DNA of 64,000 bases, taken from positions 2,108,001 to 2,172,000 of the forward strand of contig NW_026889751.1 of NCBI RefSeq assembly GCF_033153115.1, written 5' to 3'. Of the stretch, positions 14,135 to 50,200 are shown in pieces. The translations under genes were made by a program, and so were the position numbers. The stretch's first letter is position 1; each line of letters begins with the position of its first letter. This DNA is from Saccostrea echinata. Lineage: Eukaryota. The notes under the pieces are model-generated. The model saw only the letters and a list, made by a program, of their open reading frames with translations, made no database searches and had not been told where the DNA came from.

Positions 14135-17100
14135 CTATGCTTGCTGACACGCGTTTTGAGTACAGCTTGCCTAAAAATAAAATTGTACACAAGTTTAATA
14201 AAATTATACATACTGCTATTATGGCTGACGTAGTTTTAAAATATGTCATTTTTACAGTATTTAAGATTCAAATACCAGCATATTCGACTTAAAATTGTTA
14301 CTCTATCTGAGGAAAACAAATCTTTTATCCATAAGTACTTACAATTCCATTATTTCTGATACAAACACATTCATTTCCACAATTGTCAATTGTTATCTTG
14401 GAGCCCAGAGGTATAAACTGATTGAATGCATCGCATCCTATGAGAAATTAAAAAGAAATTACAATATACAATTTATTTTTCTTACAGTATATGCCATGTT
14501 GTAAATTTTTAATCAACCAAGTGGCAGTGAATACAAAACATTGTCATGATGTAAATGTTATGAATTCCATCAATTTTTTTTGTATAACGGTAATAAAATA
14601 GGTATTATGGGAATTGATTATCAATGGTTTAAATCATACTTAACCGGAAGGTCTCAGGATGTGGGGATGTTCTTTCAAAGGGAGAGGGAATTACTTGTGG
14701 TGTACCCCAAGGGCGCAGGTTGGGTCCTTTATTGTTTTAATGTTATGTAAATGATATGTTAATTAGTATATGAAGACGCTTATCCTATATGCAAATGACA
14801 GTGCCATCTTGTACTCAAATAGAGACCCAAATGTGATCTAAGATAAAATTGGTAAGGTGTTACGGAGGTGTTCTGAGTAGCTCATACACAAGCTCTACCT
14901 TCATCTTGGAAAAACAGAGTCTGTTCTATTCGGCCATACCCGCAAGCTAAATAATGAAAGTCAGCTTGAGGTCAAATGTCACAATCAAAATTCTAGGAAG
15001 TATTTCAAAACAAAAGAGTAAGTTTCTTTAAAAATCTGAACCCTAAAACTACATGCAGTATTAATTGCGATATCTTAAATTCAACAAACACACTCTGTGT
15101 ATAGCTGATCGAGTTACCCATAGCCTGACACCAAATTACTAACAGGAGCTCTTTGACAGAAATGATAATACTAATAAGGATGCATCTAATTTTAAGTTAA
15201 TAGAGTCAGGGCTTTACAAACAACAGTTCAAATTTTATCGCCATGTTCTTTTACACTGGAATACTCTGCCTTTGGGAGTTAAAAATAAAGCTAACACAGC
15301 TACACAAAGTAGCTCAAGAAGCTCGAAGGAGGGAAGGAGGTATTTACCGGTATATAGATGTATAACATTTTATGATGTAATAATACAGATTTTTGTATTA
15401 ATTAAAAAAAAAAAATAAACAATGGCTATTACTTCAGGTTAGGAAAAATATCTGATAATCATTTTTATTTATTTATTTTTTTTTTTGGACCGCTTAGTCA
15501 TATGTAATTACATGTAATCAATCAACATGTTACAACCCAGAACCCATTGAAAATAAGCAAGTTTTAAATATTGCTTTAATGGGATATCATAGGCAAAGAT
15601 AGATTAAATTATTATGATTTGCATTATATGTTAAAAGGCCTGGCTCCGGGGCCATAAAACTAAGACAAGCTCACTTTTGATTTCAGTCTAACTCCTACGA
15701 AAGGAATTAATGGTGGAAAAGTGAGACTGAGATCAAAACTGGGCTCGTCTAAGTTTTATGGCCCCGGAGCCTGGAACCCGTTTTACAAAAGAACTTACGA
15801 CTAAGACCAAAAACTTAAGATGATTGTAAAATCTTGCACAATTAATGATTATATTACAAATTGCCTGCATAAATATATCTACTAAATTCTTTTTGAAAAG
15901 ATTTAAACCATTTTCATAAAAAAGAAAGTTATTTGTAAAATTATTGTTTGGTCTAAGTCGTAAGTTTAGTTGTAAAACAGGGCCCTGGTTTCTGTGATAT
16001 GCATCCGTTTAAATAATAATGATAGTTATAGACTGTGATTTTATCTGGTGTGCCAAAAATACATGTACAATCCCACTATTAATATTGTTGATTTAATTTA
16101 ATGTTTAGCAAGTTATTTCATGCTCTGCCTGAATAAAGATAATAACAATAGTCACCCGGTAAATTCAGAATTTACAACGTGATACATAAACATGAAGCTC
16201 GCTTTAAAATACTAGTAGATGAATAGTAGATGAATAATATGCCTTATACACATTGTGAGAAGTTAATACTGGTTAGGTTCGGTACCTGGTTGACACTGGC
16301 ACGTGATTGAATCTGCCCAATCAGGACAGAGGAAATTTCTGTTGTATGTACACTGGTTCCCAGTCCGACAGTCATCACTACAAGACAGAAAAATATAATT
16401 GAAATTCAATGCAGTATTTGTTTTGTACGCTTGTCATATATACATTCACATTTATAGTCACTATCATAGTATTTACCTGGTCTTGCAAGGCTGAGTTTCA
16501 TTTGCTACAATTACTGGAGGAAGTGTCGTTCCTTGGACCATAAAATTCAAAGTTCCATTCCTGTTACTTTGAGGTTCCGATGATAAGACAACATTTCCCC
16601 TTGAAGTTTCAATAATTGTATTACCATTTGGATCGACACGTCTTGAAACAGCACCATTTCTGATCAGAGAACCAGCTGAGGGTGACCTTACTCCGACATT
16701 GTTAGTAGTTGCTACTCTTGTTTGGAATCCAGAACCTCTAGATGCCGCTTCGCCAAATGTTTCGAAAACCGAGCTCTGGGGGTCCTGTGGTGTTCCAGAT
16801 GAGGTTCCTACATCCATACTTACAAAGCCACCCACTCTAGTATTCTGTCGTGAATTCCTTGAAAGTCCATTATTTTCAAATCTAGACCCCTGCACACTCT
16901 GAATTGAACTTCCAGAGTTTGATGGCATAAATCGTGTTTGTATTGAACTAGAATCCGAGGCAGCGTCAGTATTGGAAGGAAAACTACTACTAGAAAGATT
17001 GTTTTGAGCTGGCGCAGTTCTGACCACTCCTCCTCTAGTTTGAGGAAAAGAGGCAGGATCAAATCCAGTTATCGACGGCTGGCTGTTAAAGGCTCCATTA

Positions 17101-20100
17101 TTTTCAGGAGGAAAACTTGAGGAAAATCGTCTTTCTATTGATCCTGGATTAACTATAGCGTTAGAGTTGGGGTTGAAAATGCTACCAGATGGTATGTTTT
17201 GGTTTTGTAAAGGTCTGGAAGCATTTTCAGATTGTGACATAGGAACAGGAACAGATCTTGTCATTGTAATCCGGTTATTAAAGTTATCAGTAGAGCTCAC
17301 ACCTCTTTCAAATATGTTTGAATTACCAGTATTCCCAGTAAAAACATTTGAGGAAAATCGCCTTTCTGTTGAATTAGGATCCACAACAGTATTACTATTA
17401 AAGGACAAACTGCCTGCAGAGGGCATGTTTTGACTTTGGATACCTCTAAACACAGCTCCCCCAGTTTGTGTGTTAGATGCAGGATCAAATCCTGTCCTTA
17501 TGAACTGGTTGTTAACATTAGAGGTACCTGTAGGTCTTACAAATGGGTTGGATGTTCCCAAATTTCTGGAAAGAACACTTGAAAACATTCTGGGGTTTTG
17601 AACATCCATGGTTTGTGGTCCTCTTGTGGAATCTGCAGAGTTTGAAAAGGAAACAAATCTATTTCTATTTATTGCAGCTTCGCCCCCAAGCAGAGGATTT
17701 ACATTTGCATTTAAATTGGTGCTCATTCCATTTATTCCGTTGTTTAGATTGGCAAAAACACCAGAGTTAGAAGTATCTGGTACTCGGGTATTGTTAATTT
17801 GTGACAAATTATTTGTGTCGGCTTCATTAGAATTGGAGATAACTCTCCTGACGGTTGTGGTCTTTTTTATGAATCTTCTAGTGCTTGAACTGCCAGATGT
17901 GAGTGCGCTGTTTTCTGTTCTAGATCTTTCCATATTTGCCTGGGTCTCTGATGACATGCCGTCACGGATTATATTCGGATCTGTCATACCTGTTTTTATT
18001 GGATCCGAAACATCAGCATTTCTACCTGTTGCTGCTTCGTTGGTGGTTTGGAATCCTTGTGAAATAGTAGGTTGCCGCGAAAATCCTGTGACTTGTGCCG
18101 TTGTTCTTTCACGAATTCTGTTTGGGTCCCTTGTATCGGTTGTGCCTTGTTCCAGAACGTTTACATTTCCATTTAGCTCTCTGTTGACGCCCTGGAATCT
18201 TTGAATTCCAGGGGTTTGCTGCGAGCTCATCACAGAATTATCGCTTCTAGTAGAATCAAAAGAGACCGTTGGTGAATTGTTATCAATACCAACCTCTGGC
18301 TGGTTGTTTGGAAAATTGAAATTGACATTTACTCCAGGTTGATTACTTGCTGTTGCGAAGTTTGAATTGAAATTAGCTCCTGGTTGGTTATTGGTGCCCA
18401 TTGTTGCAGAGGCTTCTTGGAAAGTTGTTTCATCCTCATTATTGTTACCGTCAACAAACATAATTTTGCTTCCTCTTTGAGAATTGTCTACAGGGTTCTG
18501 AATTCTGTTGTTTGGTTGTCTTCTGGAAATGTTTGTTACAGGGTCTGTTCTAACATCAAATCTTTCGCTTATCGAATTAATTGGAGTTGCTGTTGATCTT
18601 ACTGTAGATAGAGTATTTTCAAAATCTGAACGTTGGAGATTAACAGACTGGGGCTGCACGTCTACGGAAGTTCGGATGAATTTATTCATATCTACCTTAG
18701 ATCCTACTATATTGCTATTTCCATTTATTACTATATTGGACTTGTTTTTAACCTCTGAAACCGAGGTTGATGGACGACTTATTTGCCTGTTGTCTATGCT
18801 GTTTCCATTTTGTGAAATTGCAGTGGCAGCCTGATTTCTGTTTGGATCTGTTACCACTGACGGTATGAATCGTTGACTTAAAGGATCGATACCCCTGTTT
18901 GTACTAGATTGAATTTCTGTAATGGTTGTACGAGAACTTGTGTTTGGGTCGTTGGTACTTCGACTGAATATTGAATTAGAAGGGATTGTCATTCTTTCAT
19001 TTGATGTCCGAGATACTGTACTTATGTCACTTGGTCCGGGAAATCTATATAGAATATCATTTGGATCGATCTGGCCTTCATTAGCTCTTATGAAGTTTCT
19101 AAAGTCCATATTTAGTTCATCTGAGGGTGATGTGACCTGTGAAGTTTTTCTGGTGTCATCAATTCGATTAATAGTTGTTGCTGTATTAACTCTTACTATC
19201 CTCGTTTCATCGTTTCTCCCAGAAGGATCAGTAAATATTTGTCTGCTATTGCTTACAGACACCCCAGTCCTAGAACCAACAGAAGGAGTCTGAATGTTAA
19301 CAGTTGGTGACCCTCCATTGCCAATAGCATTGTCTTGTGCCGTATTAGAGAACTGGGTTGGTGTAAACATTTGCTGAAGTTCACTCAGAGAAGGAATCCT
19401 TTCTCCAGTGTTTTCGACAGACACTGCCTGACGTTGTATAAGGTTACTTGGAGATGCATCATTGGAAACACCACTGGAAAGCACTATTCGATTTGGTGAA
19501 TTGTCTGTAGCCGTACCAGTGATCCTACTGGAGCTCGGGTCGGCGTTCGAATTTCCAAAGACTGTATTTAGAATTGCACTGGCATCAAAAGTTTGTGGAT
19601 TTGCACTTGTTACAGAATCAAACGAATTAAGTTGTCCATTTACAGTCATTTGTGATGATGCGCCATCATTGGAGTTGCTATTACTAAAGCGTGAAACGAA
19701 TGAAGACTCGGCAGCAGATGCTGGATTTACTCCTTCCGGTACTCCTGCATCGGAGGTTATTAAACCTGTTGCTAGGCCATTTGCTATCGAGGTTGCGGTG
19801 CCTCCTAGTAATGTATCCTGACCAGTCAATGTCGTAATTAAATTTTGACCCTCTAAAGTGTTGGCGGACTCACCCAAAGTAATTAATCCTCCATCGAAAC
19901 CTGATTGACCCACGATGCTTGCCGTATCAGTCGTTGCGGGTAATGTTTGAACGGTATTTGAGAATCCGCTTAAATCAAAAGTGGTAGGCACCGTTTCACC
20001 ACTCAGGGTAATGCTTCCAGTTCCCCCGTCAGCTAAAGTTGTTACAGGGGGAGAAATGATAGGGAGGGGTGGCGGTCCTGGAATGCCGGGAAACCCGAGA

Positions 20101-20276
20101 GGGGCAGGTAAAAGAGTACGCACACCTGGAGGAGGTGGTCCGAATCCTGGAAACAAAGGTGGAGGTCTACCAAAACCACGGAATCCAAACGGAGTAAATC
20201 CTTGTTCAACGGAGGATTTAATGAACAAGAGTGAAAGTACGAAAAGGAGATTCCAACCAGTTTTTAGACATTCCAT
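14135..20276 (-). CDS. Cluster gene A: secreted ~1340 aa Asn/Ser/Thr/Arg/Phe-rich low-complexity protein with C-terminal 12-Cys module
   Basis: Exons 20276-16477, 16377-16286, 14437-14343, 14170-14135 (phases 2,1,0; all GT-AG). Signal-like N-terminus MECLKTGWNLLFVLSLLFIKSS. C-terminus: CKTSDDCRTGNQCTYNRNFLCPDWADSITCQCQPGCDAFNQFIPLGSKITIDNCGNECVCIRNNGIASCTQNACQQA*. Confidence 0.92.
14600..15290 (+). mobile_element. Decayed non-LTR retrotransposon (LINE, CR1/L2-like) reverse transcriptase fragment in intron 2 of gene A
   Basis: Conceptual translation with stops and frameshifts: MGIDYQWFKSYLTGRSQ...ITCGVPQGRRLGPLLF*CYVNDM...LYANDSAILYS...LHLGKTESVLFG...HWNTLP, matching the RT motifs GVPQGSxLGPLLF, YADD and the downstream WNxLP. 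Confidence 0.85.
15643..15770. mobile_element. MITE 1 (CTG TSD) in intron 2 of gene A
   Basis: TIR GCTCCGGGGCCATAAAACT / AGTTTTATGGCCCCGGAGC, flanked by CTG on both sides. Confidence 0.8.
15774..15984. mobile_element. MITE 2 (CTG TSD) abutting MITE 1
   Basis: TIR GAACCCGTTTTACAA..AACTTACGACTAAGACCAAA / TTTGGTCTAAGTCGTAAGTT..TTGTAAAACAGGGCC, flanked by CTG. Confidence 0.78.
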
Positions 20277-22107: not shown

Positions 22108-23977
22108 TTATTTCTTTCCAGAAAGATCCGGACATGCTCGCATCGTACAGGCAGCCTGAAAAAGGGAAAAAAAAGTCATGTACAGATCGGACATAAATCG
22201 CCGTCATCTGTCGGGGCCATGAGACACTACCACTCATAATCTTATAGTTCCCAGGTCCAGAGCACTAAACAGTAATTCCTTTATGAGTTAATTGTTAAGT
22301 TATAGCCAAATATCTAGATCCTGGACCTAGTTTGTGGCTGGTAACAACAAGAATAAACCAGGAACCAGGTTTGTATTGGCATCTTTCCCTAGATTCGCTG
22401 TGTCATTGCGCAACAAATCATGAATGATACCATCTGAGGCTTTCATCTTTAATAAAGACTCACATGTACTGTATACTGTTTAACCTGTACCGACCAACTA
22501 ACGAACTTCGGAGAAAAGAGACGAAAGATTCGTAACAGAAATAAATTACATGTATCTAATAACCTACCTCCCCTGACTGACTGTTGTTACATGTACAAAC
22601 ATTCCCACACTGGTCAATCTGCCGAGACTGTCCGAATGGAATAAAAGTGTTCTGTGCCCGGCAACCTATTTGTAAAAGAGTTAATTTTACAATTTTTTTA
22701 CACTGAAAATAGAAAATATAAAACATTGCAAAGGAAGACAACATGTATTTAGCAAATAAAATATTATTTTTATCAAACATATAGGATATAATCTTACCTG
22801 CAACACACTGACATCTTAACATAGGAATCCATTTTGGACACATGTACTGGGCCTGCGTGGCAATAGTTGGAGTAAAGGCACATTGTTGACCAGCTGGACA
22901 ATCCCTGATAAAACGTTTTTTATGATTAATACTAGTATTTGTAAATGGAATATTAACATGGTATATAAATGTATTAAACCTAAATATGACTTAGAATGTA
23001 ACATTTACTTACGTTTGGTGACATTGTGCCTGATTTCCTTGGCCCCCAGGGACCAGAGAGGGTTGTAATTGACCAGGGAATCCCCCGGGTTGTCCCGGAA
23101 ATCCTTGTTGATTTGGTAATCCTGGTTGTCCTCCTGGAAATCCGTTTAGTGGAGGTTGTCCGGCATTAAATCCCTGTTGTCCAGCATTGAAAGCCGGGGG
23201 TTGTCCGAAACCTGGGGGACCACCATTGAATCCACCCTGTACACCATTAAATCCTGGTCGTGGAAATCCCTGTTGTCCATTGAATCCTGTTGGCATATTA
23301 GGTTGACCGTTAAAATTTGGAGGCCCATTAAATCCAGCCTGTCCATTGAATCCAGGCTGTCCGTTGAATCCTGGTAGATTATTAAAGCCTGCTTGTCCAT
23401 TAAATCCCATCCCTGGTTGTCCATTAGGTCCTGGTTGACCATTGAAGGCAGGTTGTCCATTAAAGCCGCCCTGTCCCATAAAACCTGCTTGTCCAGGAAC
23501 GCGTCCTTGTGGTCCAAACTGCGGCGGGAATCCCTGATTCATGGGACCAGGGATACCCTGAGTAGGTGGAAACCCATTAACTCCAAGTTGCATTCCACTG
23601 GGGAACCCTGGTTGACCTTGAGTTAAGCCGGTAGTTTGGGATGGGATACCAGTGTTTTGTAAAGAAGTTGTGCCGCCAATTGTAGGAAAACCTCCTTGAA
23701 TCGTTCCGGTTCCGGTAGCTGGATTTGTTTGGACAGTTCCGGTCTGTGTTCCCACTGTATTTGTTGTAGAGGCGGTTAATCCTGTATTCACAGGTTGTAA
23801 TCCAGGATTCAGAGTCGAATCAGTACCTTGAGCATTGCTGCTTCCGAAATTCTGTGTGGGAAACGAAAATAAGTCCAAACCAGTGCCTGTGTTCGGGGTA
23901 AGATTAAGCGTGTTCCCTTGGCCGAACACTACACCAACAAAACAACACAAAATCCACCCAATTCGTAACTTCATCAT
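22108..23977 (-). CDS. Cluster gene B: secreted ~405 aa Gly/Gln/Pro/Phe/Asn (GFNGQP-repeat) protein with C-terminal 12-Cys module
   Basis: Exons 23977-23013, 22904-22798, 22665-22568, 22155-22108 (phases 2,1,0). Signal MMKLRIGWILCCFVGVVFG. C-terminus: CHQTDCPAGQQCAFTPTIATQAQYMCPKWIPMLRCQCVAGCRAQNTFIPFGQSRQIDQCGNVCTCNNSQSGEAACTMRACPDLSGKK*. AATAAA on the minus strand near 21995. Confidence 0.93.
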
Positions 23978-27244: not shown

Positions 27245-30200
27245 ATGGATATTTTAAAAATTCTTTTTGTGACTGTAATGTTATCTTGTGTTTGTGACGG
27301 AACTTATTTCTTCAAACCCAAGAAAATATTTTTGCCTCCGATTGAAAAACATCATCATCACCATCATCATCATCATATTCATCCCCATCCTCACCCTCCT
27401 CATCCTCACCCTCCTAAGCATCCTCCTCATTCCCACTTTCCTCACAATCATCATCACCCTCACGGAATGGAGGACCACGGATTTTTCCATAAATTTCACA
27501 AGCCAAAATTCATCCATCACAGAATTCGTCCACTTCCAAAGCCAGTGATGTACAAGACTTTCCTTATTCGGAAATACAGCTTGCCACCAGATTTTCATGT
27601 GCATATTTCGTTGAATAAGAAAATATACGGACACTCTCATGGACCTTTTAAACCACACACCCATTATCCGAAAAATCCTACGTTGATGATGCACCAAAGT
27701 AAAATGAAGAAAATATATCGACCGAAACAATTTCCACACAAATATGGACAATATCCTGTGAAAAACATTTTGACATACGGAACTAGAGGAAAAGTTCCAC
27801 GATTTCCGGAATCGGGTATGCAGATACAAACCAATATGTTTCTTCCCACAGGAATTCTACATCCACCTACCACCAGGCCCTCAAAGAAGCCAAGAATAAG
27901 TAAATATGAACTATGGCTGAGGAAAATTAATGATTGGATGATAAGAAAACAGAATACCGCGAAGGGAATTCCTGTAAAAATAAAGCGCAAACGGATTTTT
28001 AATAAAATACATACGAATATTCCTAATCCACCTCAACGACTAAACATTCCTGAACCTCGGCCACGTAAAAAAGATGATGGTATTATTGCTAATTTTGTGT
28101 TTGTGAAACCACCTTTTATCAGTAAGAGTGAGGATCCAGTAGGTCAGGGGATCCCCGTTTCTGAAAAGCCTAAGCCTTCAACAACTAACAAAAAAAGGAT
28201 TACTCCAAAGCCAGAAACCGTTAAGTTGCGCCCTAAAGCCCCAGTTATGGGCATTCCTATTAGCCTGGATAATATAGGCCCACCATTTGATATTACTGAA
28301 GTTAATGATCTTCCTACGGGTGGCCTACCCCCACCTATTGAAATTATTCATGAACCAATCCCTGGTAGTACCGGCGGTGTCAATAAAGTCGATGTAGGGC
28401 TTCCTATAGGTTTGACTCCAGGACCATTTGGGTCAGATTCTGTCACACCACCCAGTATTATAGTGGATGGCCTCCCAACTGAACAGAATGTGAATAGCAT
28501 TGTTCCGCTTCCCGGAAACATTAACGAAATGTTGACGGATGTAGCTGATTTGTCTGAATTTCCAAATTTAGACCTCAGTAATGAGCCATTGATAATTGAA
28601 CCTTTTGGTCCAATGCCACCTGATAGTCAGTCTCCCCTGCCGCTGGACATACAACCTTTTCCATGGGACCCCTCTCAGATACCCTTCCCACCGGAAGTAA
28701 TTCCTCGTATATCAAATAAGGAAAAGGAGCCATATGTTATGAGACCACTGGAACCTATTGTTAAGATAATTGGCCGAGATAGCATAAAACGTAAAAACGA
28801 CACTATATTTGTACCTAAACCAATATCTGATCCAAAATATAACGAAACAGAACAGGTCAATGAATCGCCTTACAGTGTATTTACTGAGGGTCCAGTGGAA
28901 CCTTCAACACAAACAACAAAAACAACAATGCCGTCGATTCCTTTACATAGAATTAAAGGTGATCCTAGTGCAACAGCAGTCTTCACAACACAAAAACCAT
29001 CAGTAACTTACCAAACAACAACAATGACCCTACCTCCTTTATCAATTATGGAGTTAAGAGATTTTGAACACCCAACTTCTGCTACGGATGTCACAACACA
29101 GACAACAACAACAGAATTAGAAACAACATCGACAACAATGACAACTAACAGTATTCCGTCAACAGACCCTGCAATCATTGTGAATAGAACAACTGGCGAC
29201 GGTCAGAATAATATGGATATGGTAGATCAAAAAATAGGAAAAGAACAGAAGAATGAATCAGCCTTCTTTAAGTATAGACCTCAGGAAATAAACATATCAT
29301 TTCCCTACCTAATATTTGATAATCCAACGACTACTACATCAGCATCAAAGACTCCAAAATCTGACACTGTAACAAGAACTAGTACAGTGACCACAACAAC
29401 AGTGGCAACAACACTAATTACAAAAACAACTACTATGGATACGGAAATAGTAACTTTAAAGACGAATGCTAGCATGCCTCAATCAACAACAAACCTGTAT
29501 AAGGATACACCACGTGTGCCAACATTAACGACAACAATACCTGCACCTGTGGCTGTTGACCAGATAAATGAGGAAATAATTTTGGATTTTATGACAAATA
29601 AACAGCTTATATCGTCAAGATCCGACGTTGCGATTGATGACTCAACTCCAGATAAAGAAACAACAACGCAAGTAAGTAGTACATCAAAAATAGGCGAATC
29701 TACAATCATATGGCCCACAACGATGAAAGAAACAACACCGACAACAACAACAACAACTAATGCATTACCTAATACAACAACACGAATCCTAACAAGTCTG
29801 AAACCAAGCACAAAAACTGAGACAACTGAGACTCCAGAACTAGCGGAGGTTATTATGGCATCTTCAACAGCACAGCCACTAACAACAGCAAAAACAACAA
29901 CAACAATACTAAATACACCTGAAACAACAGGCATACCGACAACTACAGATAATTACTATTCACACACAGAGACCCCGGTGTATGACTATGTTACAGGCCC
30001 TTACGACTGGTTTTTCAACGAGACAGATAATACCACGTATTTATATTATGATGAGTTTATGAACATGACAACACACCAAACAACTGAAGTAGTCCTGGAA
30101 AGCACAACATCACCAACAACTGAAAGACCAGTAACTCCAACAATGAAAACAACACAAACGACACCAATATTGGTTTCTTCCGGATTTTTATCAAGTAACA

Positions 30201-31825
30201 AACCTACCACAGCAATGATGGATTTTAGAAGCACAAAGCAGACAACACTTAAACCATCAACCCAAACAACAGAGCCGGTGTACACCTCGACACTAATTTC
30301 TACCGAACAGGCAACAACTACAACTACACAGCCACCTGAACAGACATCATTAAGAGAAGATAAAACAACAACTCCAGTAGTAGTAACAACAACCTCCCCA
30401 ACAGTGACAAGCACCCAGAAACCTCCTGTCACTACGGCAACTCCAGCTTCAACTACAACCGAGGGACTAAAAATCTGCCAAGAAACGTAATAAAGATTAT
30501 AATAAATCATCATGTATTCATAGACATTTTTTTTTAAAATTTAAACATTCTATTATGTTCCTTTTTAAACATTTAAAAAATATATATTTTGCAGATATTG
30601 TAAAATCGGTCAGGAATGTACCGAAAACAATACATGGCTGTGTCCCACTGATGTAGCCGGAACTAACTGCCACTGTACCCAGGGCTGTAGAGTAGGAAAC
30701 ATGTTTATTCCGCTTGGCGAATCCTATCACTTAGACGAATGTGGAAGTGTGTGTTCTTGCTTCAACCTTTATGGAAAGGTATATGAATGTATTGTTTTTA
30801 TCTTTCGAATTACATTTTAAAAAGATTGAAGGTAGGCTAGTCATTTTATTGTGGAGCATTAGCTGTATTTTGTGTTTTTATCATTGATTAAATATTTGAA
30901 TGTTTTTTTTTTTGCTCTCTACCTCAAGGCTGAGTGCCACAGACTCCGATGCACTAACAGAACTGTAGCAGATCCTGTAAAGAAGCAGACAAACTACACC
31001 GGCATATCTATAGGCGGTGTGATATACATTCCTGTACAACGGGTCCAAATCCCGAAAAATAAGTCGAACACTCCTGGTGATGACGAATATACGTATGGGA
31101 TTTCGATTGGTGGCGTGATTTACATACCAAAAAGAAATCATACGAACTCTGAACTCGATAAAAATAACGACTGGACGTCGGGAATATCACTAGGTGGGGT
31201 CATCTATGTACCCTCCCGCGAATACACAAATGAACAAAATGGCAAAACTGATTATGAAAATGTGGTTGAAGGCAATTCCTCTTGGACAAAAGGAATAACT
31301 ATTGGGGGCATTATATATGTTCCAGTGCACAAAAGAAAAAAGACCTTTCAAGAAAAGAATCGAGAATTTGAAAAGATATATGACAAGACAAATTTTGCTG
31401 ATGCCGATGTTATACCTGTTAAAACACCATATGGAACCACAAGGGGAATAACTATTGGAGGTGTTATTTACATACCGAACAAAAACAATAACGAGCCTGT
31501 CCATTTTCTTGGTGAAAGCGAAATACAACGTAAAGAGGAGAAAAACCAGACCTCGCCCATAGAAGTGGAATATCCGGTGGGCTGGACAAATGGCATATCA
31601 ATCGGGGGAATCATTTACGTGCCCGTCCGACAACGCAAGAAGGTTGTACACAACCCTACTTATCAAATACCAGACATTCAAACCAAAAACTACACTAAAA
31701 ATGACTTTCCTTATTTGACCAAAACGGCTGGAATTCATATTGGAGGTATAATTAATGTTCCGATTGCGAAAAGATCGTCTATAAAATCTATAAAAATAAA
31801 AAAGATGAACCCGGCTTTTGGATAA
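27245..31825 (+). CDS. Cluster gene C: secreted ~1440 aa His/Lys/Pro-rich, Thr-mucin-like protein with 12-Cys module and GISIGGVIYIP-repeat tail
   Basis: Exons 27245-30486, 30595-30778, 30929-31825 (phases 2,0). Signal MDILKILFVTVMLSCVCDG. Module: CQETYCKIGQECTENNTWLCPTDVAGTNCHCTQGCRVGNMFIPLGESYHLDECGSVCSCFNLYGKAECHRLRC, followed by a ~290 aa tail. AATAAA near 31975. Confidence 0.93.
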
Positions 31826-33775: not shown

Positions 33776-34018
33776 GGGCCAACTTTAAAATAATGTTTGT
33801 TTGCCCTCTCCCGACTCAGGATGAAAAAATTGGGTCGGTAGGTAGGTGACAAATTTTTTCCCCCCAGAAAATTTCAACATCAATGCTGAATTTTCAAAAT
33901 CTATTTTCCGGAATGCATAAAAAAATTGCTTCCTGGAGGTTAAAAAAGTTTAAGTCGGGCCGTTTTTAGCCAGTCGGTCGGGAGAGGGCAACCAAACATT
34001 TTTTTTTTAAGATGGCCT
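33776..34018. mobile_element. MITE
   Basis: TIR GGCCAACTTTAAAATAATGTTTGTTTGCCCTCTCCCGAC / GTCGGGAGAGGGCAACCAAACATTTTTTTTTAAGATGGCC. Confidence 0.72.
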
Positions 34019-34853
34019 TGGTTGTTTTGGGGGTAGTTACGCCAGAGTTTCTGAGTAGTTGCTGAACAAAAATAAAATGTTTTTAGGGTTGACTAAGCGT
34101 GCGCAATTTTAATTAGACGATATTAATTCATCAAACGTGATTCCTATTCCTGTCGTGAGAAAATTCTTCCTATAAACGATATTATTTCTGGGCTTCGAAT
34201 GCTAAATGTGATTTAAATTCAAAATATGTGGTCTCTCTTGTCAGTCTTGACCAAATTCAAAGGTTGTAGATTAGAATGAGTTCCAACTAAGAATTGCAGT
34301 ATATTTAATCCGCCGATTTTGTTTATAGCGGTGAAAAAGTTGAAATACCTTTTTTGTTTATCATGTTTCCACCTTACAAGTCAATACAACGCTATTTCCA
34401 AGCTATACTTCCGTGGATAAACTTAAAGTCTCTATGTAATCTCGCTATATAGTCTTGCCAGGGTTACTGAAAACTCTTCGGATATTACAATTTGCTGAAC
34501 ACCGAAAAATATGTTTTTGATAATATTTGGAGGGGTGAATCTGGTAACAAAACACATACTACTAGTCATCTAGCAAGCTATAGAATTTTGTTTTCGTCCA
34601 AGTGAAGAGATGCTTGACAAACAAATGCACTGAAGCTCTCACTGCTTCTTCCTTATGGACCTTCTATACACCTTTTAAAACGTTTTTCGAACATTGAGAC
34701 AATTACATCGAGTAAAAGTTTAAATATTGAGCATATACAATTCATTTTCAGCAAAGAGAAATCAGTTAATTACCTCATTCCGGGAAAGATCTTTAAAGTC
34801 AAGAAATTACTGATGAACAGAAATCTATGTTGCAATGGGGAAAATGACATGCA

Positions 34854-35886
34854 AAACAAGATATGTTTGTGAAACACTGATGCCCCCTTATGGCAACTTA
34901 TAGCGAAGGTTTAACTTTCTCAAATGCAAATCAAATATGCTGGTACCCAAAGTAAAGGTCTTGTACCGAGGAATATACCTGTGAAATGTGAAAGCCCTAG
35001 CAGCAACCATTGAAAAGATATGGAAAAGGTTAAAGTTTTTCAAAAGTAAGTCAAACATCAAGGTCAAGGTCAAATGGTCAAAATTAATGGTGCCCAAGGA
35101 AAGGCCTTCTCAAAATAAATATACATGTGAAATATGAAAGCCCTAGCAATGACCGTTTAAAAGATATGGCCAAGGTTAAAGTTTTTCAAAAGTAGGTCAA
35201 ACTCCAAGGTCAATGGGCTATAATTGTTGGTATCTAAAGGAAGAACTTGTCACAAGAATTACACATGTGAAAAATGAAAGCCCTTGCACCAACTGTTCAA
35301 AAGTTGTGGCCAAGGTTAAAGTTTTCCAAAAGTAGGTCAAACTCCAAGGTGAAGGTCAAAGGGTCAAAAGTGTTGGTATCCAAAGGAAGGTCTTGTTACA
35401 AGGATTACATATATGAAGAATGAAAGCCCTAGCACCAACTGTTCAAAAGTTATGGCTAAGATTAAAGTTTTCCAAAGGTAGGTCAAAGGGTCAAAGTTGT
35501 TGTTATCCAAATTAAGGTCTTGTCACAAGGATTACATATGTGAAAAATGAAAGCCCTAGCACCTACCGTTCAAAATATATGGCTAATGTTAAAGTTTTTC
35601 AAAAGTTGGTCAAACTCGTAGGTAAAGGTTAAAGGGTCAAAGTTGTTGGTATCCAAAGAAAGGTCTTGTCACAAGGATTACACATGTGAAGTATGAAAGC
35701 CCTAGCACCAGCCGTTCAAAAGTTATGGCCAATGTTAAAGTTTTACAAAAGTACGTCAAACTCCAAGGTCAAGGGGTCAAAGTTGTTGGTATCCAAAGCA
35801 AGGTCTTGTCACAAGGATTACATATGCTAAGTATGAAAGCCTTAGCACCAACCGTTCAAAAGTTATGGCCAATGTTAAAGTTTTTC

Positions 35887-35917
<31 letters not shown>

Positions 35918-36243
35918 AGGTCAAATATGGTGGTACCCAAAGAAAGGTCTTGTCACAAGGAATAAACAGCCCTAGTACCAATCGTTCAAATGTTATGGCC
36001 AAGGTTAAAGTGGAAAAATTTTGCAAAGCTGGGTCAAACTCCAAGGTCAAGGTAAAAAGGTCAAATATGGTGGTACCCGAAGAAAGGTCTTGTCACAAAG
36101 AATACACATGTGAAATATGAAAGCCATAGCTCCAACCAATCAAAAGTTATGGGCAATGTTAAAGTTTTTGCGGACAGACAGACAGACGGACGGACAGGGC
36201 AAAAACTATAAACTCCCGAATCTTCGATACGGGGGCATAAAAA
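34854..36243 (+). repeat. Helentron-type non-autonomous element (HINE-like) carrying ~9 tandem satellite units of ~127-154 bp
   Basis: The AAAGCCCTAG marker recurs at 34991, 35137, 35277, 35423, 35550, 35696, 35836, ~35966 and 36120. The 5' ATGCCCC and 3' GGGGCAT form sub-terminal inverted repeats; a GACA/GACG microsatellite and the hairpin CCCG...CGGG lie at the 3' end. This matches the layout known for oyster satellite-bearing Helentron elements. Confidence 0.85.
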
Positions 36244-37525
36244 GTCTTCAATTAATTTATCTTGACCTAACAAAATCCTTTGAATTCTTATAATGATTAC
36301 AAATTTACTATATAATACACTGTATGTTTCAATTAATATTATATGAGAATTAAGAGTAGTCCACTCTAACTGCATTAAAATACCACAATATTATAGAGTT
36401 CTTTGGTGTACAATATATATAGAGAATTCTACAGAAAAACAAAATTTAACATGTGCCAATTCTATAAATATTGCAAAATGTACAAAACTTAGATTTGTTT
36501 TATTTCAAAGATTTTCAATCGTTATTTAGTTCGAAAATCAATTATTTACGTATCGACCTTGAACCTTGAGATATGATCTGCAGACACAGACGCTGGAAAG
36601 ACGTAGGTATGTTTTTAATTTTTTTTTTAAAATCCAAATCTCTTTTGACCAAACAGCAGTTTTATGTTTCCATTCTGAAAGATTTTACATTTTGATTAAA
36701 ATAACATTCGCAGGTTTGTTAGTAATGACTGCACCAGTCCTGTGCTTAATGCATACTTTTTACAGTGATTTTGATTCAAATTAAAGATTTTCAAACTTAT
36801 TACATCTTGAATTAAGTTTTAAAATGTATCACGTGATTTATAGCTCCTAACAATTGAGGAATTTGGAACATAATCATTGATAAAATAGTAAGTAGTTTAT
36901 AACCAAGTGATGGTCCTCATTCACGAGAATACGCAAATACCTGTCACTGAGAGATAAGACTATTCCTTGCCAAATACTTGCGTATCAAAATTATATTACC
37001 GATGAAGAAAAAAAAGTGTCTATTAAACGTTAGATTTCGAAAAGTAAAAATGAATTGTATTGGTTCAATACATTGAACTCTTACAATATCTTCTGATAAA
37101 AGATAATAATCCTAATCCTTTTTTTATCATTTATCGCATACCTAGCATTCTAAGTTAATGGTCATCATGACTCATTATTTCATTTTGTCATTGATAATGG
37201 TCACATTCTATAATATATTGTCACCTTTTATTGCTGTGCACGAGTAATGCAACCGTTCTTGCTTAATTGATCCACGGTCCACTGGTCAACGTGCGTTGTC
37301 CTGACTGTCCACTAAACGATGCAAATACGTCATGGGTCTTTAGGGTCAGTTCTAGTATTAAAAATCCATTAAATGATTGTATTAGTATCCTGTGAATGAC
37401 AAAACTTGTGAGTTTCATTCATGAGGAAATGTTTCCATTCATGAAAGATAGTGGTTCAATGACGTGTGCTTCCTGGAGGTGTCAAATGCGTAAACATACC
37501 GTAAACATGTGTAGTTTGTCTTGGA

Positions 37526-41998: not shown

Positions 41999-42918
41999 AT
42001 GGCAGTACTTACGACAATGAGCATTCTTTTGCTGTGTTGTTTGTTATGTTTTGTGTATGTCGATTCATTTCTCTATGCTTCTGTTCCTTGGACTGTAATA
42101 ATTTTCGATGACATCGAAAACGATGCATCTGGGAACTATTACACGCCGTTCATGGAAAATCGACCCTTGGGGCCAGTGAACAACAGGAGGAGGAGACCCC
42201 CACCTCCTGTAGGCAACTTGAGACCCCCGATTCCCATGGGCAACTTGAGACCTCTGCAAAGGATGGCTCCAAACAATATGAACATTCCCAGACGGGAAGC
42301 GGTTACACCCGTAAATACTGTCAAGTACATCTCTCCATACCCTAGGTAATAATGATTTCAGTAACAGATATGGTTAGATAGTCCTTAATTCTTTTTGCTT
42401 TGTGTTTTTCGTAAATTGATGAAACATTTGGTACATCACTTTTTCAGTACACCTTATTGTCCTGTTGGACAACAGTACGTTTATTTGCCGCCCACTCTGG
42501 ATGGTGATGCTGTAGCGTCGATCTGTCCCCTGAACAATCCTGTGCATCCCTTATGTAGATGCCAAACAGGTGCGAGATTTTATAGATATTTATTTATGAT
42601 TGGAAACTTAAAGTTCATCAATATTTACCAATCAATTTATCTCTTCCGATTTTATAAATATTCTTTTACAAATTCTTTGCATCAATTTGTCTTCTCCTTG
42701 CAGGGTGTCGACATAAAAACTTCTTTATCCCCTATGGCACGTCAATAATGGTTGATAAATGTGGAAACAAATGCTACTGTAATAGCTTAAATGGAGAGGT
42801 AGGCTTTCATTAGGCCCCAATATTTATCATAAATCAACTGAAAATCAAAGAGATTATATATATGTGTTAATTGTTCTTTTACGTCTTGCAGGTGGAATGC
42901 GAATTCGACAGTTGTTAA
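41999..42918 (+). CDS. Cluster gene E: secreted ~196 aa Pro/Arg-rich protein with a 10-Cys variant of the module
   Basis: Exons 41999-42345, 42448-42569, 42704-42798, 42892-42918 (phases 2,1,0). Signal MAVLTTMSILLLCCLLCFVYVDS. Module: YPSTPYCPVGQQYVYLPPTLDGDAVASICPLNNPVHPLCRCQTGCRHKNFFIPYGTSIMVDKCGNKCYCNSLNGEVECEFDSC*. AATAAA near 43090. Confidence 0.92.
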
Positions 42919-43964: not shown

Positions 43965-45050
43965 ATGAAGTTAGAAATAATTGTTTGCCTTTTGTGTTTA
44001 TTATCTTTAACACATGCTTACTCTTACAAAAGGAGAAAAAATTGTGTGAAACGACCTTTGCCATATCCTCCGACTTATCATTACTACAGACCAAGGTTTC
44101 CTCCAATGCCATTCCCAAGATGGCCCCAGTGGAACGTGCCCGCTCCAACTCCTGTGGCCATGAAGTTTTTTGAGGTTGGAGGACAACCTGCGCCACCAAA
44201 CACTGACCAGATCCTACCTTTGTTTCCCCAGCCCCAGCCGCCAATTGACGTCAAACCTGTCATCCCGGATAACTCCGGACCCGTGATCGTAAATCCGGTG
44301 AATCCGATTATAGAAGATTCCGGACCCCTTCGTGGAGATCTTGCTCCTGCTCGTGATATTGTACCACCTGCACTGAATGGTAAACCTTGCAATGCCATGT
44401 GAGTAATAGGAAGTATTTTAGGTTTACTCTTTGGTGTGTTTTACAACAGTTCTCCATTATACCAGGAAGAATGATTTATAAATAGGTTTTTTTTTTGATT
44501 TCTTTTGTTCAGGAGTAATAATTGTGCCATGGGAGAAGTTTGTATGTATATTGACCAGTCAGTAGGAAATAGCTTTGTTTGTCCCTCGGCGACTGCAGTG
44601 TCATGTACTTGCCAACCAGGTAAAATTCTAACTGATACACTGTCTCCATTCTCTGCTTAACACTTGTCCCATTCCTCCCACACAAAAAAAATTCCTATTC
44701 TAACAGATTAGCCTAATTCCGAGCACTCTGTCTTAAATTCTTAACCTCTAACAATTAACTCCTCTAAATTTGCACGTAAGTAGATACATTAATAACGATC
44801 ACTTCGTGGCGTTATACAGGGTGTCGGCATGGGGACCTATTTATTTCACTCGGTAATACGGTGTTGGTGGATCAGTGCGGAAGCAAATGTTCTTGTATGT
44901 CGTTGTATGGAACAGTAAGTTAATCATCTAGTCATTGTTCTGTGCATAATCGCTTTCCCGATTCCCAAAGTTAATATTTCTAAATTGTGGTGTTTATTTA
45001 CAATCTCTCTATTTTATTTACAGGTCAGCTGTGACAAAAAAGCTTGTTAG
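43965..45050 (+). CDS. Cluster gene F: secreted ~220 aa Pro-rich protein with 12-Cys module
   Basis: Exons 43965-44398, 44513-44619, 44820-44914, 45024-45050 (phases 2,1,0). Signal MKLEIIVCLLCLLSLTHA. Module: CNAMSNNCAMGEVCMYIDQSVGNSFVCPSATAVSCTCQPGCRHGDLFISLGNTVLVDQCGSKCSCMSLYGTVSCDKKAC*. AATAAA near 45143. Confidence 0.93.
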
Positions 45051-47274: not shown

Positions 47275-50200
47275 TCAGATCTGGCATTTCTTTTCGCAGC
47301 TGCGGCACACATCAGCTTGAAACTGGGAGACCTATTTAGAATGGAAAATATTAATACATTCGTTAATTTACAAATTTTCTTACTTCTTTAATTCAATTTT
47401 AAAATAACTTTTATCATGCATTTGTTATTAAACATTTACATGCAATATAAACAAAAATAAAAATTTAAAATTATCCCCAAAAAACTTTTAAGAGTGAAAG
47501 AGACTGTCAAACAAAACTATATAATCATTTTGATGTTTCACGCGGAATTAGGTTCGATAACTCTTGTACCTTCAGTCTTGTTCCCTGATGCTTCCTACGA
47601 AGTTTGTTATACCGAGCCCGACATACGTCACACTCAACGCAATCTTCCATGTCAAAGCGAATAGTTTTTCTGCCAACAAGAACATTTCTCATTTTTTTCT
47701 CTCTTTCCAAAATCAATCACACAGTCAACATTGAACCAATCCGTTTTTCAATGAAAATGCCATGTTGTAACATAGCTTTCTACTCAGTTATGAATTTTTT
47801 GACTGTATACATGACCAAACATGATTTTCAATGAAATAAAGACATGGCCCAGTGTATCCCCGTCTGATTAAGTACGCACGAAGCTTTGTTTGACAACCCT
47901 TTCACCTTGCAGCTGTTACTTTGCAGACTTTCAATCACAACATTAATCTTTAATTCAAAACAAAATTCCGCCACCTTTTAACATTAATATGTATGTTATA
48001 ATATATATATGTTATAATAATCATTTTAGTATTGTATGCCCCGGCCGCACAATCAATGTTTGAATGCATCCTTACTTTTCCCCTTTTGCATCCATTATTC
48101 CACAACAGATTCAATGCGTTCCTTCCTTTTCACAAGAAAAAGGAAAAAAATCTTTGAAAGAAGCTGTTTAACAATTCAACAGTTCATTTTCTTGCTAATA
48201 AAGCATTGCTGCAGCCGAATCATAGTGTTTCCCTACCATCTACAAACCTATAGGGAGCATGGTTACATTGAGTTTACTATATGGCCACGGTTCGTCCAAA
48301 GCCATGTTGTTTGGTGTATTTTGCTACAAGAATATCTGCATATCTCCTCTCCTCTTCCGTTAACAATGGTGGACTTCCACTATTGGAAGAGAATATTGGT
48401 CAACCCGGATACATAGGAATTAAAGCAAAGGGGGTTTTCTTGAATACACATGGGGAGAAGTTAGAAACCATAATCCATCAACATAGCAATTCAACACTTC
48501 CATTTTTGCTTGATAAGTTATCAAATAAATTAATGAAGATAGCTACAGAATTTTGGATTATGTTTTCGAAATGGATATGCAGTTCCAGGTTCGCGCATCT
48601 AACACAGAATTGCACCTGTCGGCCTTCAAAAAAACCTTTCAATGTATACATGTATGTACCTGAATCTAGACCCTGTACGATCAATTAATTACCACTTGAA
48701 CAAAACATTTTTAATGAGTGCATAATTTACGTGAAGAAAAATATAATCAAATGAAATGTTGGTTAAAGTAACAAAATATACTGCGTGATTAGTCAACACA
48801 TGCAAAGTTCTGTGTAAATGCGATCAAACATAGAACAGCACAGCAGCGCAAGCACATGCAAAATTAGTAGAAATATGTACAGGTAAATCATCTATGAAGA
48901 AGTTTATATGGATGTGAAAACGAACCTTTCTTGACACCAAAGATTCAAAATTAAGTACCAGTTTTTGCAAATCGCACCTGTATGCCTTTTTTAAAAATGG
49001 TCAAGAAAGCCTCGTTTAGGATACGTAATATGGGATACACTAAAAGGAAGTGAATAGATAGATGTTCCAAATATATTAACTAAATAACGGTGATCTATAG
49101 TAATCATTTTCACCTTTTAATAACTAGTATCATCTGAAATTAGCAACATGCCAAATCTAAATTTTATTACTTCAGGTAACTTTATGTATTACTCGAGGTA
49201 TTACTGAACGATTAAATTGTAGATGATTGATTCAGAAAATATAAGCTAGTACATACACTGTACATATATAAAACAGTCAATGAATCCAGATCCCTTAAGA
49301 TATCAAATTTCTACAGAATATACCCCCGCCAAACACATATGTTTACTAATTTACAGCATTAAAAACATTTTCTAACTAATATCAACCCCTTTAACCGTTA
49401 AATATCCAGCACCATCAATACGACATAAGTCCCCCTCCCATTCTCTTCGCCAAAGATGAACAGATGTGAATTCAGTACTTACAATGGCTGATGTTGATAT
49501 CTTATTGGAGTTACTGGTCTAACTGGTGATAACTCGTCGTCGAAAATTTCCCTGGCGGTGCGGAGAGAGCCGCTCCGCTTCAGTCCTGAAGAGTAAATGG
49601 GTTTTGTGGGAGATGAACACGTCTTGCTGCCGTCATAAGGTTTGTATGTGTATGAGGACCCGTGAGAACCGATTTCTTTCGTGGGAGTTCTAACGGGACT
49701 TCGAGTTGGAGAGACTGACTGTGAGCCGTATGAGCGCCGATGAGCGCTATTAATTCCTTCTTTAATACTTAAGTTGGTTTCGCTTTTAGCGTTTTTGAGG
49801 ATGCTTCTGATGTTAGCATTATTTCGTTGTGGTGAAACGGATGAGCCATAGGAAGACCGCGTGGGTCCGTAGCTGGAAGACCGATATGGAGGTCCATAGT
49901 CATCAGTATTGTAGTAACGATTACAGCTCTCTTGTTGGACGGCATACTCCAGAGCCTTCATAAACGTTTTGTCGCCGTTTGGACTCTGTAAATCATACCG
50001 ACTTGGTCTTTGGTACTCCTCTTTATAGCGATTGTCAATAGGAGATTCTACAATACATTCAATTGTTTCCTTTGTATTGTCGTATCGAGTGTTTCTAGGG
50101 GATATAACATAAGACCTCTGAGGTCTGATGGCATCATTAGAGTTCATTAAATATGGACTATAAACTAAATGTCTCTTTGCTGGCTTCTCCTCGCTAAAAT

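What the first reader, a model, noticed from the sequence alone, without database searches (positions are those of the whole stretch)
22108..22665. Second half of the module is pacifastin/half-VWC-like; gene B carries a near-canonical inhibitor loop
C7-C12 fits the pacifastin pattern C-xn-C-(N)x-C-x-C-x2-4-G-x3-C-T-x3-C and the first subdomain of VWC. Gene B ends ...DQCGNVCTCNNSQSGEAACTMRACP, close to the locust pacifastin chymotrypsin-inhibitor ending as I recall it (DKCNTCRC..GKSAACTLKACP), which would put Met-Arg at P1-P1'. The C11-x4-C12 loop differs in every paralog (TQNA, TMRA, HRLR, SNIS, EFDS, DKKA), as reactive loops of canonical inhibitors often do. Inference: structural proteins with a built-in protease inhibitor, or an inhibitor fold co-opted for assembly.
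Basis: partly seen in the sequence, partly recalled or inferred. Interest (0 to 1): 0.72.

Follow-up and report, generated by a model that had tools for sequence, protein, structure and literature searches.

The report
Oyster secreted-protein cluster with pacifastin-like tip
Six neighbouring oyster genes encode likely secreted proteins ending in a bivalve-wide cysteine module whose tip is predicted to fold like fibronectin and mucin "finger" domains and insect pacifastin inhibitors; it likely docks matrix proteins together, though one copy carries an unusually inhibitor-like loop that would merit an assay.

Summary
Gene B (four exons, all three introns bridged by one transcript contig) and five clustered paralogs end in a 12-Cys module (10 in E), and the six loop sequences are as reported. 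Models of D and of a mussel B-like relative put the second half in the FnI / VWC-subdomain-1 / mucin-E / pacifastin fold (Z 2.5-4.4, weak). It is not a conventional pacifastin: 0 of 36 modules fit the published pattern (C7-C8 17 residues, Gly inserted before Asn, no release site in B). It best fits the long-loop "ancestral PLD" class published in 2026, which has no inhibition data. Loop differences between paralogs carry little weight: 12 of 16 other windows also differ in all six, and the loop is invariant in 5 of 7 ortholog groups. B itself stands out: its loop is the closest of 64 bivalve loops to locust inhibitors (resampling p about 0.001-0.03, post hoc), with P2 Thr and the supporting Asn. 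The mussel B-like protein has Gln at P1, however. Verdict: an undescribed bivalve family, likely a matrix docking module (0.55); B a real inhibitor about 0.3. New variant of a known kind.

The parts
23013..23977 (-). Gene B exon 1: hydrophobic N-terminus (likely signal peptide), Thr/Gly-rich then G/P/Q/N/F-rich low-complexity body with GFNG repeats, and module Cys1
   Evidence: covered by X1 contig
22798..22904 (-). Gene B exon 2: module first half, C2-C6 (fold not assigned)
   Evidence: joints in X1, X2, X3
22568..22665 (-). Gene B exon 3: C7-C10 of the FnI/VWC-SD1/E-type finger, with the family's F-I-P-x-G and D-x-C-G-N-x-C motifs
   Evidence: (TILa 16.2 and VWC2L_C 18.4 bits, below cut-off)
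22108..22155 (-). Gene B exon 4 (coding part): C11-C12 and stop; the exon starts at P5 of the putative binding loop
22132..22155 (-). B loop P5-P3', AACTMRAC; P2 Thr, P1 Met, P1' Arg
14135..20276 (-). Paralog A, 1340 aa, 4 exons, S/N/T-rich body, loop TQNA
   Evidence: splicing not tested with reads
27245..31825 (+). Paralog C, 1440 aa, 3 exons, His/Pro then Thr-rich body, loop HRLR, 290-aa tail with 7 G-I-x-I/L-G-G-x-I repeats
   Evidence: partial contig cover
37642..39086 (+). Paralog D, 390 aa, 3 exons, loop SNIS; identical to database protein P0001
42017..42918 (+). Paralog E, 190 aa, 4 exons, 10-Cys module (lacks C1 and C3), loop EFDS
43965..45050 (+). Paralog F, 220 aa, 4 exons, Pro-rich body, loop DKKA; identical to database protein P0059

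Best explanation
Gene B is one of six clustered, intron-containing oyster genes for likely secreted proteins with a low-complexity body and a conserved 12-cysteine module, whose second half is predicted to fold as a fibronectin-I / mucin-E / long-loop pacifastin-like finger and likely serves as a docking module that assembles these proteins into an extracellular matrix, not as a family-wide protease inhibitor. Shown: gene structure, splicing of B, clustering, bivalve-wide relatives, a module far better conserved than the bodies. Predicted: the fold and disulfides C7-C10, C8-C12, C9-C11. Inferred: each fast-evolving body supplies material properties; the shared module, through its invariant F-I-P-x-G / D-x-C-G-N surface and the free edge strand, binds a common partner or other family members. 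Binding by adding a beta-strand to that edge, as FnI modules do, is recalled knowledge and untested here. The Asn / P2-Thr pair is likely a structural feature of the scaffold, which pre-disposes some copies, B above all, to act as inhibitors. The tissue is unknown.
For: Module identity far exceeds body identity between relatives: D/P0005 84 vs 50%, E/P0020 83 vs 51%, D/P0008 62 vs 22%, B/P0017 54 vs 13%. The conserved sites lie outside the loop: Ile at C7+7 and Asp at C7+16 are invariant in 16 of 16 representatives, Phe, Gly and Asn nearly so. Only 4 of 16 representatives, and 1 of 6 paralogs, combine Asn, P2 Thr and a usual P1. Fold matches include non-inhibitor assembly modules: VWF, FnI, FCGBP, MUC2/MUC5B, VWC (Z 3.0-4.4), against pacifastins Z 2.3-3.1 (differences under 1 are ties). 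TILa is the most frequent Pfam hit, 7 of 19 rows, against Pacifastin_I 3 of 19, all under cut-off. B has no dibasic site before the module. P2 Thr occurs in 39 of 49 unrelated finger repeats of this genome. PMC13388995 places 13-20-residue long-loop domains in molluscan matrix-associated proteins; PMC11207715 describes TIL/E regions as cradle and bridge in MUC2 filaments.
Against: No tissue, localisation or binding partner was found. B's loop is closer to locust inhibitors than column resampling predicts. The B-like mussel model superposes on pacifastin 7sap at 1.5 A over 32 residues with 41% identity and scores higher on Pacifastin_I (19.5 bits) than on VWC (16.3). Asn and P2 co-vary as in inhibitors: 12 of 13 Asn-bearing representatives have Thr/Ser at P2, 0 of 3 Ser-bearing ones do (rows not independent). 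All Z scores are below 5. B itself was not modelled.
Confidence: 0.55

Rival explanations
1. B, and perhaps a few P1-Lys relatives, is a real matrix-tethered canonical inhibitor: the C11-C12 loop enters the active site of a chymotrypsin- or elastase-like protease with Met in S1, and the Asn / P2-Thr hydrogen bond prevents cleavage. This can coexist with a docking role in the rest of the family.
For: B's P5-P3' loop differs from PDB 7sgq (AACTLRAC) only at P1 and from PMP-C/SGCI at P1 and P1'. It ranks first of 16 family loops plus 48 genome repeats; resampling p = 0.007-0.018 over 16 members with one reference and 0.001-0.034 with seven references over 16-64 loops. P2 Thr and its bond to Asn15 separate inhibitors from substrates on the SGPI-2 scaffold, and one inhibitor-type clone has P1 Met (PMC12038735). 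The second-best family loop by the seven-reference score is the B-like mussel protein.
Against: The test is post hoc and columns were treated as independent; on P2-P2' alone p is 0.04-0.23 and 1 of 48 genome repeats ties B. The B-like mussel protein has P1 Gln (clade support only 87/85). The inserted Gly shifts the cysteine that tethers P3'. The core aromatic (Phe in 19 of 20 genome repeats) is Arg in B. PMC2689174 calls P1 Met unconventional. No oyster ortholog of B's last exon could be obtained.
Confidence: 0.3
2. The whole family is a set of tethered inhibitors whose loops diversified to cover different proteases.
For: The loop has the lowest pairwise identity (0.08) of 17 windows among the six paralogs, sits on its own exon in all six, and varies at 3 of 4 sites among D orthologs. 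Pacifastins tolerate 17 P1 residues (PMC2689174).
Against: P2 is His, Ser, Glu and Asp in C, D, E and F; C and F also lack the Asn. P1 entropy ranks only 5th of 32 sites. Loops are invariant in 5 of 7 ortholog groups.
Confidence: 0.08
3. The module is a VWC-type ligand-binding domain (growth factor or microbial surface) displayed on mucin-like stalks.
For: Weak VWC / VWC2L leads (Atlas scores 0.75-0.77, lead only); fold matches to CCN3, collagen IIA and NELL2 VWC. BMP binding by VWC subdomain 1 is recalled, not from a call.
Against: The second VWC subdomain is missing and the usual core aromatics are replaced. No ligand data.
Confidence: 0.07

Closest known systems
'Ancestral' long-loop pacifastin-like domains (PMC13388995, 2026)
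   Same: Six-Cys scaffold, C1-C2 loop within 13-20 (17 here), predicted N-terminal beta-hairpin, Gly in the C4-C5 loop, molluscan, part of a larger secreted protein.
   Different: Gly inserted between C2 and Asn, longer C4-Gly loop, core aromatics replaced, one copy per protein, always fused to a 6-Cys first half. Six family identifiers or names were not found in that paper's two supplement files. That class has no inhibition data.
Conventional pacifastins (PF05375; PMP-C, SGCI/SGPI; MEROPS I19 label recalled)
   Same: Predicted core fold (1.5 A over 32 residues to 7sap); C-x-C, Gly-x3-C-T-x3-C and, in B, a nearly identical P5-P3' loop.
   Different: C1-C2 17 vs 9-12; C2-C3 three residues vs Asn-x; C4-Gly 4-5 vs 2-3; below Pfam cut-off; no dibasic release site in B; inhibition untested.
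VWF/mucin E module, TILa (PF12714), VWC subdomain 1
   Same: Cys spacing close to 17-3-1-8-4, structural matches to VWF, MUC2, MUC5B, FCGBP, CCN3 and collagen IIA; preceded by a Cys-rich unit ending C-x-C-x-x-G.
   Different: No VWD/C8, first half has 6 Cys (TIL has 10, recalled), no second VWC subdomain, Pfam scores under cut-off.
Fibronectin type I (finger) module
   Same: Top or tied-top fold match, Z 3.8-4.3.
   Different: Six cysteines instead of four (recalled); single copy, not tandem; 15-29% identity.

Membership tests
Conventional pacifastin | C1-x9-12-C2 (pattern in PMC2689174) | tested here: not met
   17 residues in all six paralogs and in 45 of 46 family sequences, 21 in one
Conventional pacifastin | C2-Asn-x-C3 | tested here: not met
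   Three residues (G-N-x in B) in 45 of 46; Asn kept two before C3 in 13 of 16 representatives
Conventional pacifastin | C3-x-C4 and Gly-x3-6-C5 | tested here: met
   All six paralogs
Conventional pacifastin | C4-x2-3-Gly | tested here: not met
   5 residues in B, 4 in A and C-F
Conventional pacifastin | C5-Thr-x3-C6 | tested here: met
   Met in B and A; not in C, D, E, F; 10 of 16 representatives
Conventional pacifastin | Pfam PF05375 above 27.9 bits | tested here: not met
   Best 19.5 bits (P0017), 3 of 19 rows hit at all; D no hit. The spliced B module was not scanned; its exon 3 gave no PF05375 hit
Conventional pacifastin | Disulfides C1-C4, C2-C6, C3-C5 | tested here: inconclusive
   Models superpose on pacifastins (1.5-3.2 A) but coordinates were not returned, so pairings were not read
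Conventional pacifastin | Precursor made only of inhibitor domains, often with dibasic release sites | tested here: not met
   One module behind a 300-aa body; B's only dibasic pair is the terminal KK
Conventional pacifastin | Canonical serine-protease inhibition | not testable with these tools
   Needs an assay
Ancestral long-loop PLD (PMC13388995) | C1-C2 extension of 13-20 residues forming a beta-hairpin | tested here: met
   17 residues; strands in this stretch in both models
Ancestral long-loop PLD (PMC13388995) | Invariant Asn directly after C2 | tested here: not met
   0 of 36 fit the strict long-loop pattern; 18 of 36, B among them, fit when one extra residue and a longer C4-Gly loop are allowed
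Ancestral long-loop PLD (PMC13388995) | Gly in the C4-C5 loop | tested here: met
   Gly four before C11 in 15 of 16 representatives
Ancestral long-loop PLD (PMC13388995) | Homology to this genome's own long-loop repeats | tested here: met
   hhalign probability 93.8%, E 1.8e-7, 37 columns; B 18.0 bits, 0 of 300 shuffles
VWC domain (PF00093) | First subdomain, FnI-like | tested here: met
   Z 3.0-3.2 to 5nb8 and 5nir over 40-42 residues; PF00093 16.3 bits over profile 1-38 in 1 of 19 rows; weak scores
VWC domain (PF00093) | Second subdomain with four more cysteines | tested here: not met
   No Cys after C12 in any of the six
TILa / VWF-mucin E module | PF12714 above 27 bits | tested here: not met
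   7 of 19 rows hit, best E 0.002; 13-17 bits for single exons
TILa / VWF-mucin E module | Follows a TIL domain in a D assembly | tested here: inconclusive
   No VWD or C8 hit in any member scanned; first half not folded alone; MUC2 780-860 aligns over model 5-83 only at Z 2.1, 4.1 A

The most novel reading that the evidence does not exclude
B is a working, matrix-tethered protease inhibitor built on the long-loop pacifastin/FnI scaffold, with its reactive loop on a separate exon. It would be a direct functional link between mucin/VWF-type assembly fingers and arthropod pacifastins, in an undescribed bivalve-wide gene cluster where one module serves as dock in some paralogs and as inhibitor in others.
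Probability: 0.25. Interest if true: 0.62.

Novelty: new variant of a known kind. Interest (0 to 1): 0.34.

Why it matters
The long-loop 'ancestral' pacifastin class was proposed in 2026 from models alone, and the paper reports no inhibition assay for it. B has the best natural loop among the 64 tested here, so a single assay of a 40-80-residue module would test whether such domains inhibit at all. Independently, the cluster is a conserved bivalve family (oysters, scallops, mussels, pearl oyster, a unionid, a surf clam) that databases call uncharacterised and partly mis-model; it may mark a shared secreted matrix. If B does not inhibit, the finding is an ordinary finger module in a lineage-specific secreted family.

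Tried and rejected
Homodimer prediction of the D module: no answer, score 0.00, alignment not used; no evidence either way. No run on record as RNA was listed, and no tissue was given. Full-length B was not found in three protein searches (the one hit is a low-complexity match), so B was not folded whole and no oyster ortholog of its last exon was obtained. The metagenome scan gave 2 loci, both chance matches to the translated intron. PDB sequence searches with D and with the family profile gave only chance hits, E 0.33 or worse. Four of 33 hits (P0025, P0031, P0032, P0035) are unrelated Cys-rich repeats and were dropped. First half of the module: no Pfam hit, no usable Atlas hit, barely covered by fold searches and not folded alone; no EGF or follistatin match was listed, which does not exclude them. 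The UniProt label 'EGF-like' on P0041 likely comes from a short pattern in the second half (recalled PROSITE pattern, not tested). No further paralog in 20 kb upstream, 10 kb downstream or elsewhere in the genome (lower bounds). The module tree is mostly unresolved (4 of 19 branches starred). Literature: six accession numbers and six motifs found 0 papers; supplement searches in PMC5854119, PMC10543319 and PMC6641155 found no family member (one unrelated hit); topic searches listed no paper whose title or abstract start describes this family. Earlier scan notes: nothing. Shell proteomes filed under other identifiers, subscription papers and bioRxiv supplements could not be checked.

Full report
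Observation. The window is G000:C2:2108001-2172000 in a 923-Mb genome. Gene D is identical to a protein that NCBI names for the oyster Saccostrea echinata. Six genes, A and B on the minus strand and C-F on the plus strand, each have a hydrophobic N-terminus, no internal membrane-like segment, a low-complexity body and one cysteine module. Introns are GT-AG with shared phases: 2 after C1, 1 before C7 (absent in C and D) and 0 just before the C11-C12 loop. B is 405 aa. One contig of run X1 bridges all three B introns at the modelled joints, and X2 and X3 bridge one and two of them (RNA status is the tool's guess).

Family. A profile search of 1.84 billion representatives gave 33 hits; 29 carry the module and 4 were dropped as unrelated repeats. 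I looked up 20 proteins (19 of the 33 hits plus P0005); every record that names an organism is a bivalve: Saccostrea, Magallana, Argopecten, Ylistrum, Mizuhopecten, five Mytilus species, Pinctada, Sinanodonta, Mactra. Neighbouring accession numbers in Mytilus and Argopecten suggest the cluster is kept (inference). Names are 'uncharacterised', 'VWFC domain-containing' or 'EGF-like'. The module is much better conserved than the body. E and its Magallana orthologs lose C1 and C3 together, which suggests a C1-C3 bond.

Fold. AlphaFold2 models of the D module (pLDDT 89) and of the mussel B-like P0017 module (pLDDT 87) are confident. B could not be folded whole. No fold match is significant on its own (no Foldseek E under 0.001, no Z of 5), but the lists are dominated by one superfamily over model residues ~37-83: FnI, VWF/MUC2/MUC5B E regions, FCGBP, VWC and pacifastins; a few unrelated small beta folds rank among them. 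Pacifastin 7sap fits P0017 at 1.5 A over 32 residues (Z 3.1); VWF and FnI reach Z 4.1-4.4 over 38-47 residues. The searches do not separate these families. The first half stays unassigned.

Membership. The published pacifastin pattern (PMC2689174, passages and the specificity section read) is met by 0 of 36 modules: C7-C8 is 17, a Gly precedes the Asn, and the C10-Gly loop is longer. PMC13388995 (abstract, Introduction, Results and Discussion read; supplements searched) defines a long-loop 'ancestral' class, rich in molluscs and matrix proteins, from models only; the module fits it except for the Gly insertion. A within-genome control helps: PF05375 finds 51 matches in this genome, 39 over cut-off, none at this locus (the intron before C11 penalises these genes). 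In nine fetched loci, 48 of 49 such repeats have a C1-C2 gap of 16-20, all 49 have two residues between C2 and C3, and 39 have P2 Thr. A profile of 20 of them hits pacifastins, mucins, VWF and FCGBP alike and aligns with the family's second half at 93.8% probability. So the genome holds closer pacifastin look-alikes than this cluster, and C-T-x3-C is common background. The family also replaces two aromatics that those repeats keep.

The loop. Variation among paralogs is not diagnostic: 12 of 16 other windows differ in all six, P1 ranks 5th of 32 sites in entropy, and loops are invariant in 5 of 7 ortholog groups (4 of 28 vs 13 of 203 variable sites, p = 0.13; D is the main exception). Against my own reading: the loop does have the lowest pairwise identity of the 17 windows, and B's loop is exceptional. 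It ranks first of 64 bivalve loops against locust inhibitors, with resampling p of 0.007-0.018 (one reference, 16 members) and 0.001-0.034 (seven references, 16-64 loops); on P2-P2' alone p is 0.04-0.23. These tests are post hoc. B has P2 Thr and the Asn that, on SGPI-2, decide between inhibitor and substrate (PMC12038735, passages read), and the two positions co-vary in the family. But only B among the six combines Asn, Thr and a usual P1, the B-like mussel protein has Gln at P1, and B has no release site.

Mechanism. Most likely (0.55) the module is a docking finger on otherwise unrelated secreted bodies, assembling them into an extracellular matrix; E regions play such a role in MUC2 filaments (PMC11207715, passages read). 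Secretion, matrix location and binding are inferred. The scaffold keeps a stabilised edge loop, and B may use it as a true inhibitor (0.3); family-wide inhibition (0.08) and ligand binding (0.07) are less likely. Pacifastin-labelled genes or proteins are reported in oyster pediveligers (bioRxiv 10.1101/2020.03.25.004614, passages read) and in a barnacle adhesive (PMC8371367, passages read), and a six-VWC protein in oyster shell (PMC5854119, passages read); none is shown to be this family.

Verdict. A real feature, with the fold correctly spotted and the function unproven. It is a new variant of the FnI / VWC-SD1 / long-loop pacifastin-like module in a bivalve family for which my searches found no description. 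Interest 0.34; about 0.6 if B inhibits.

Noticed in passing
window 14135-14437 and 2409-3212 (-): NCBI model XP_061195266.1 'mucin-17-like' (P0010, 1799 aa) joins gene A's first three exons to a downstream gene and skips A's last exon, losing C11-C12; likely a chimeric model.
   Followed up: partly
window 22108-23977 and 27245-31825: Genes B and C did not appear as full-length proteins in the searches, although B is spliced in a transcript contig; they may be missing from annotation.
   Followed up: partly
window 30929-31825 (+): Gene C's tail holds 7 spaced repeats of G-I-x-I/L-G-G-V/I-I-x-I/V-P with no Pfam match above cut-off.
   Followed up: partly
window 42017-42918 (+): Gene E lacks C1 and C3 together, as do Magallana orthologs, pointing to a C1-C3 disulfide in the unassigned first half.
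   Followed up: partly
G000 C16:9608000-9631300, C58:3473000-3638800, C65:852500-857500, C33 (L001-L009): Tandem arrays of long-loop pacifastin-like repeats, 39 over the Pfam cut-off; L008:479-592 ends VSCTLRAC and others TEMA, TKRA, TLIA, so they are good assay candidates too.
   Followed up: partly
window 22666-22797 (-): B's second intron (132 nt) is open and in frame with both flanking exons; no retained form was seen in the contigs laid.
   Followed up: partly
window ~33800-36300: High-copy repeat between genes C and D, present in thousands of transcript contigs.
   Followed up: no
window 49482-53845 (-): Two long open frames (921 and 492 aa) of an unrelated gene with no Pfam hit.
   Followed up: partly
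P0018 (Pinctada FSP39_021125): Appears to fuse a D-like and an F-like body before one module, perhaps another merged gene model.
   Followed up: no
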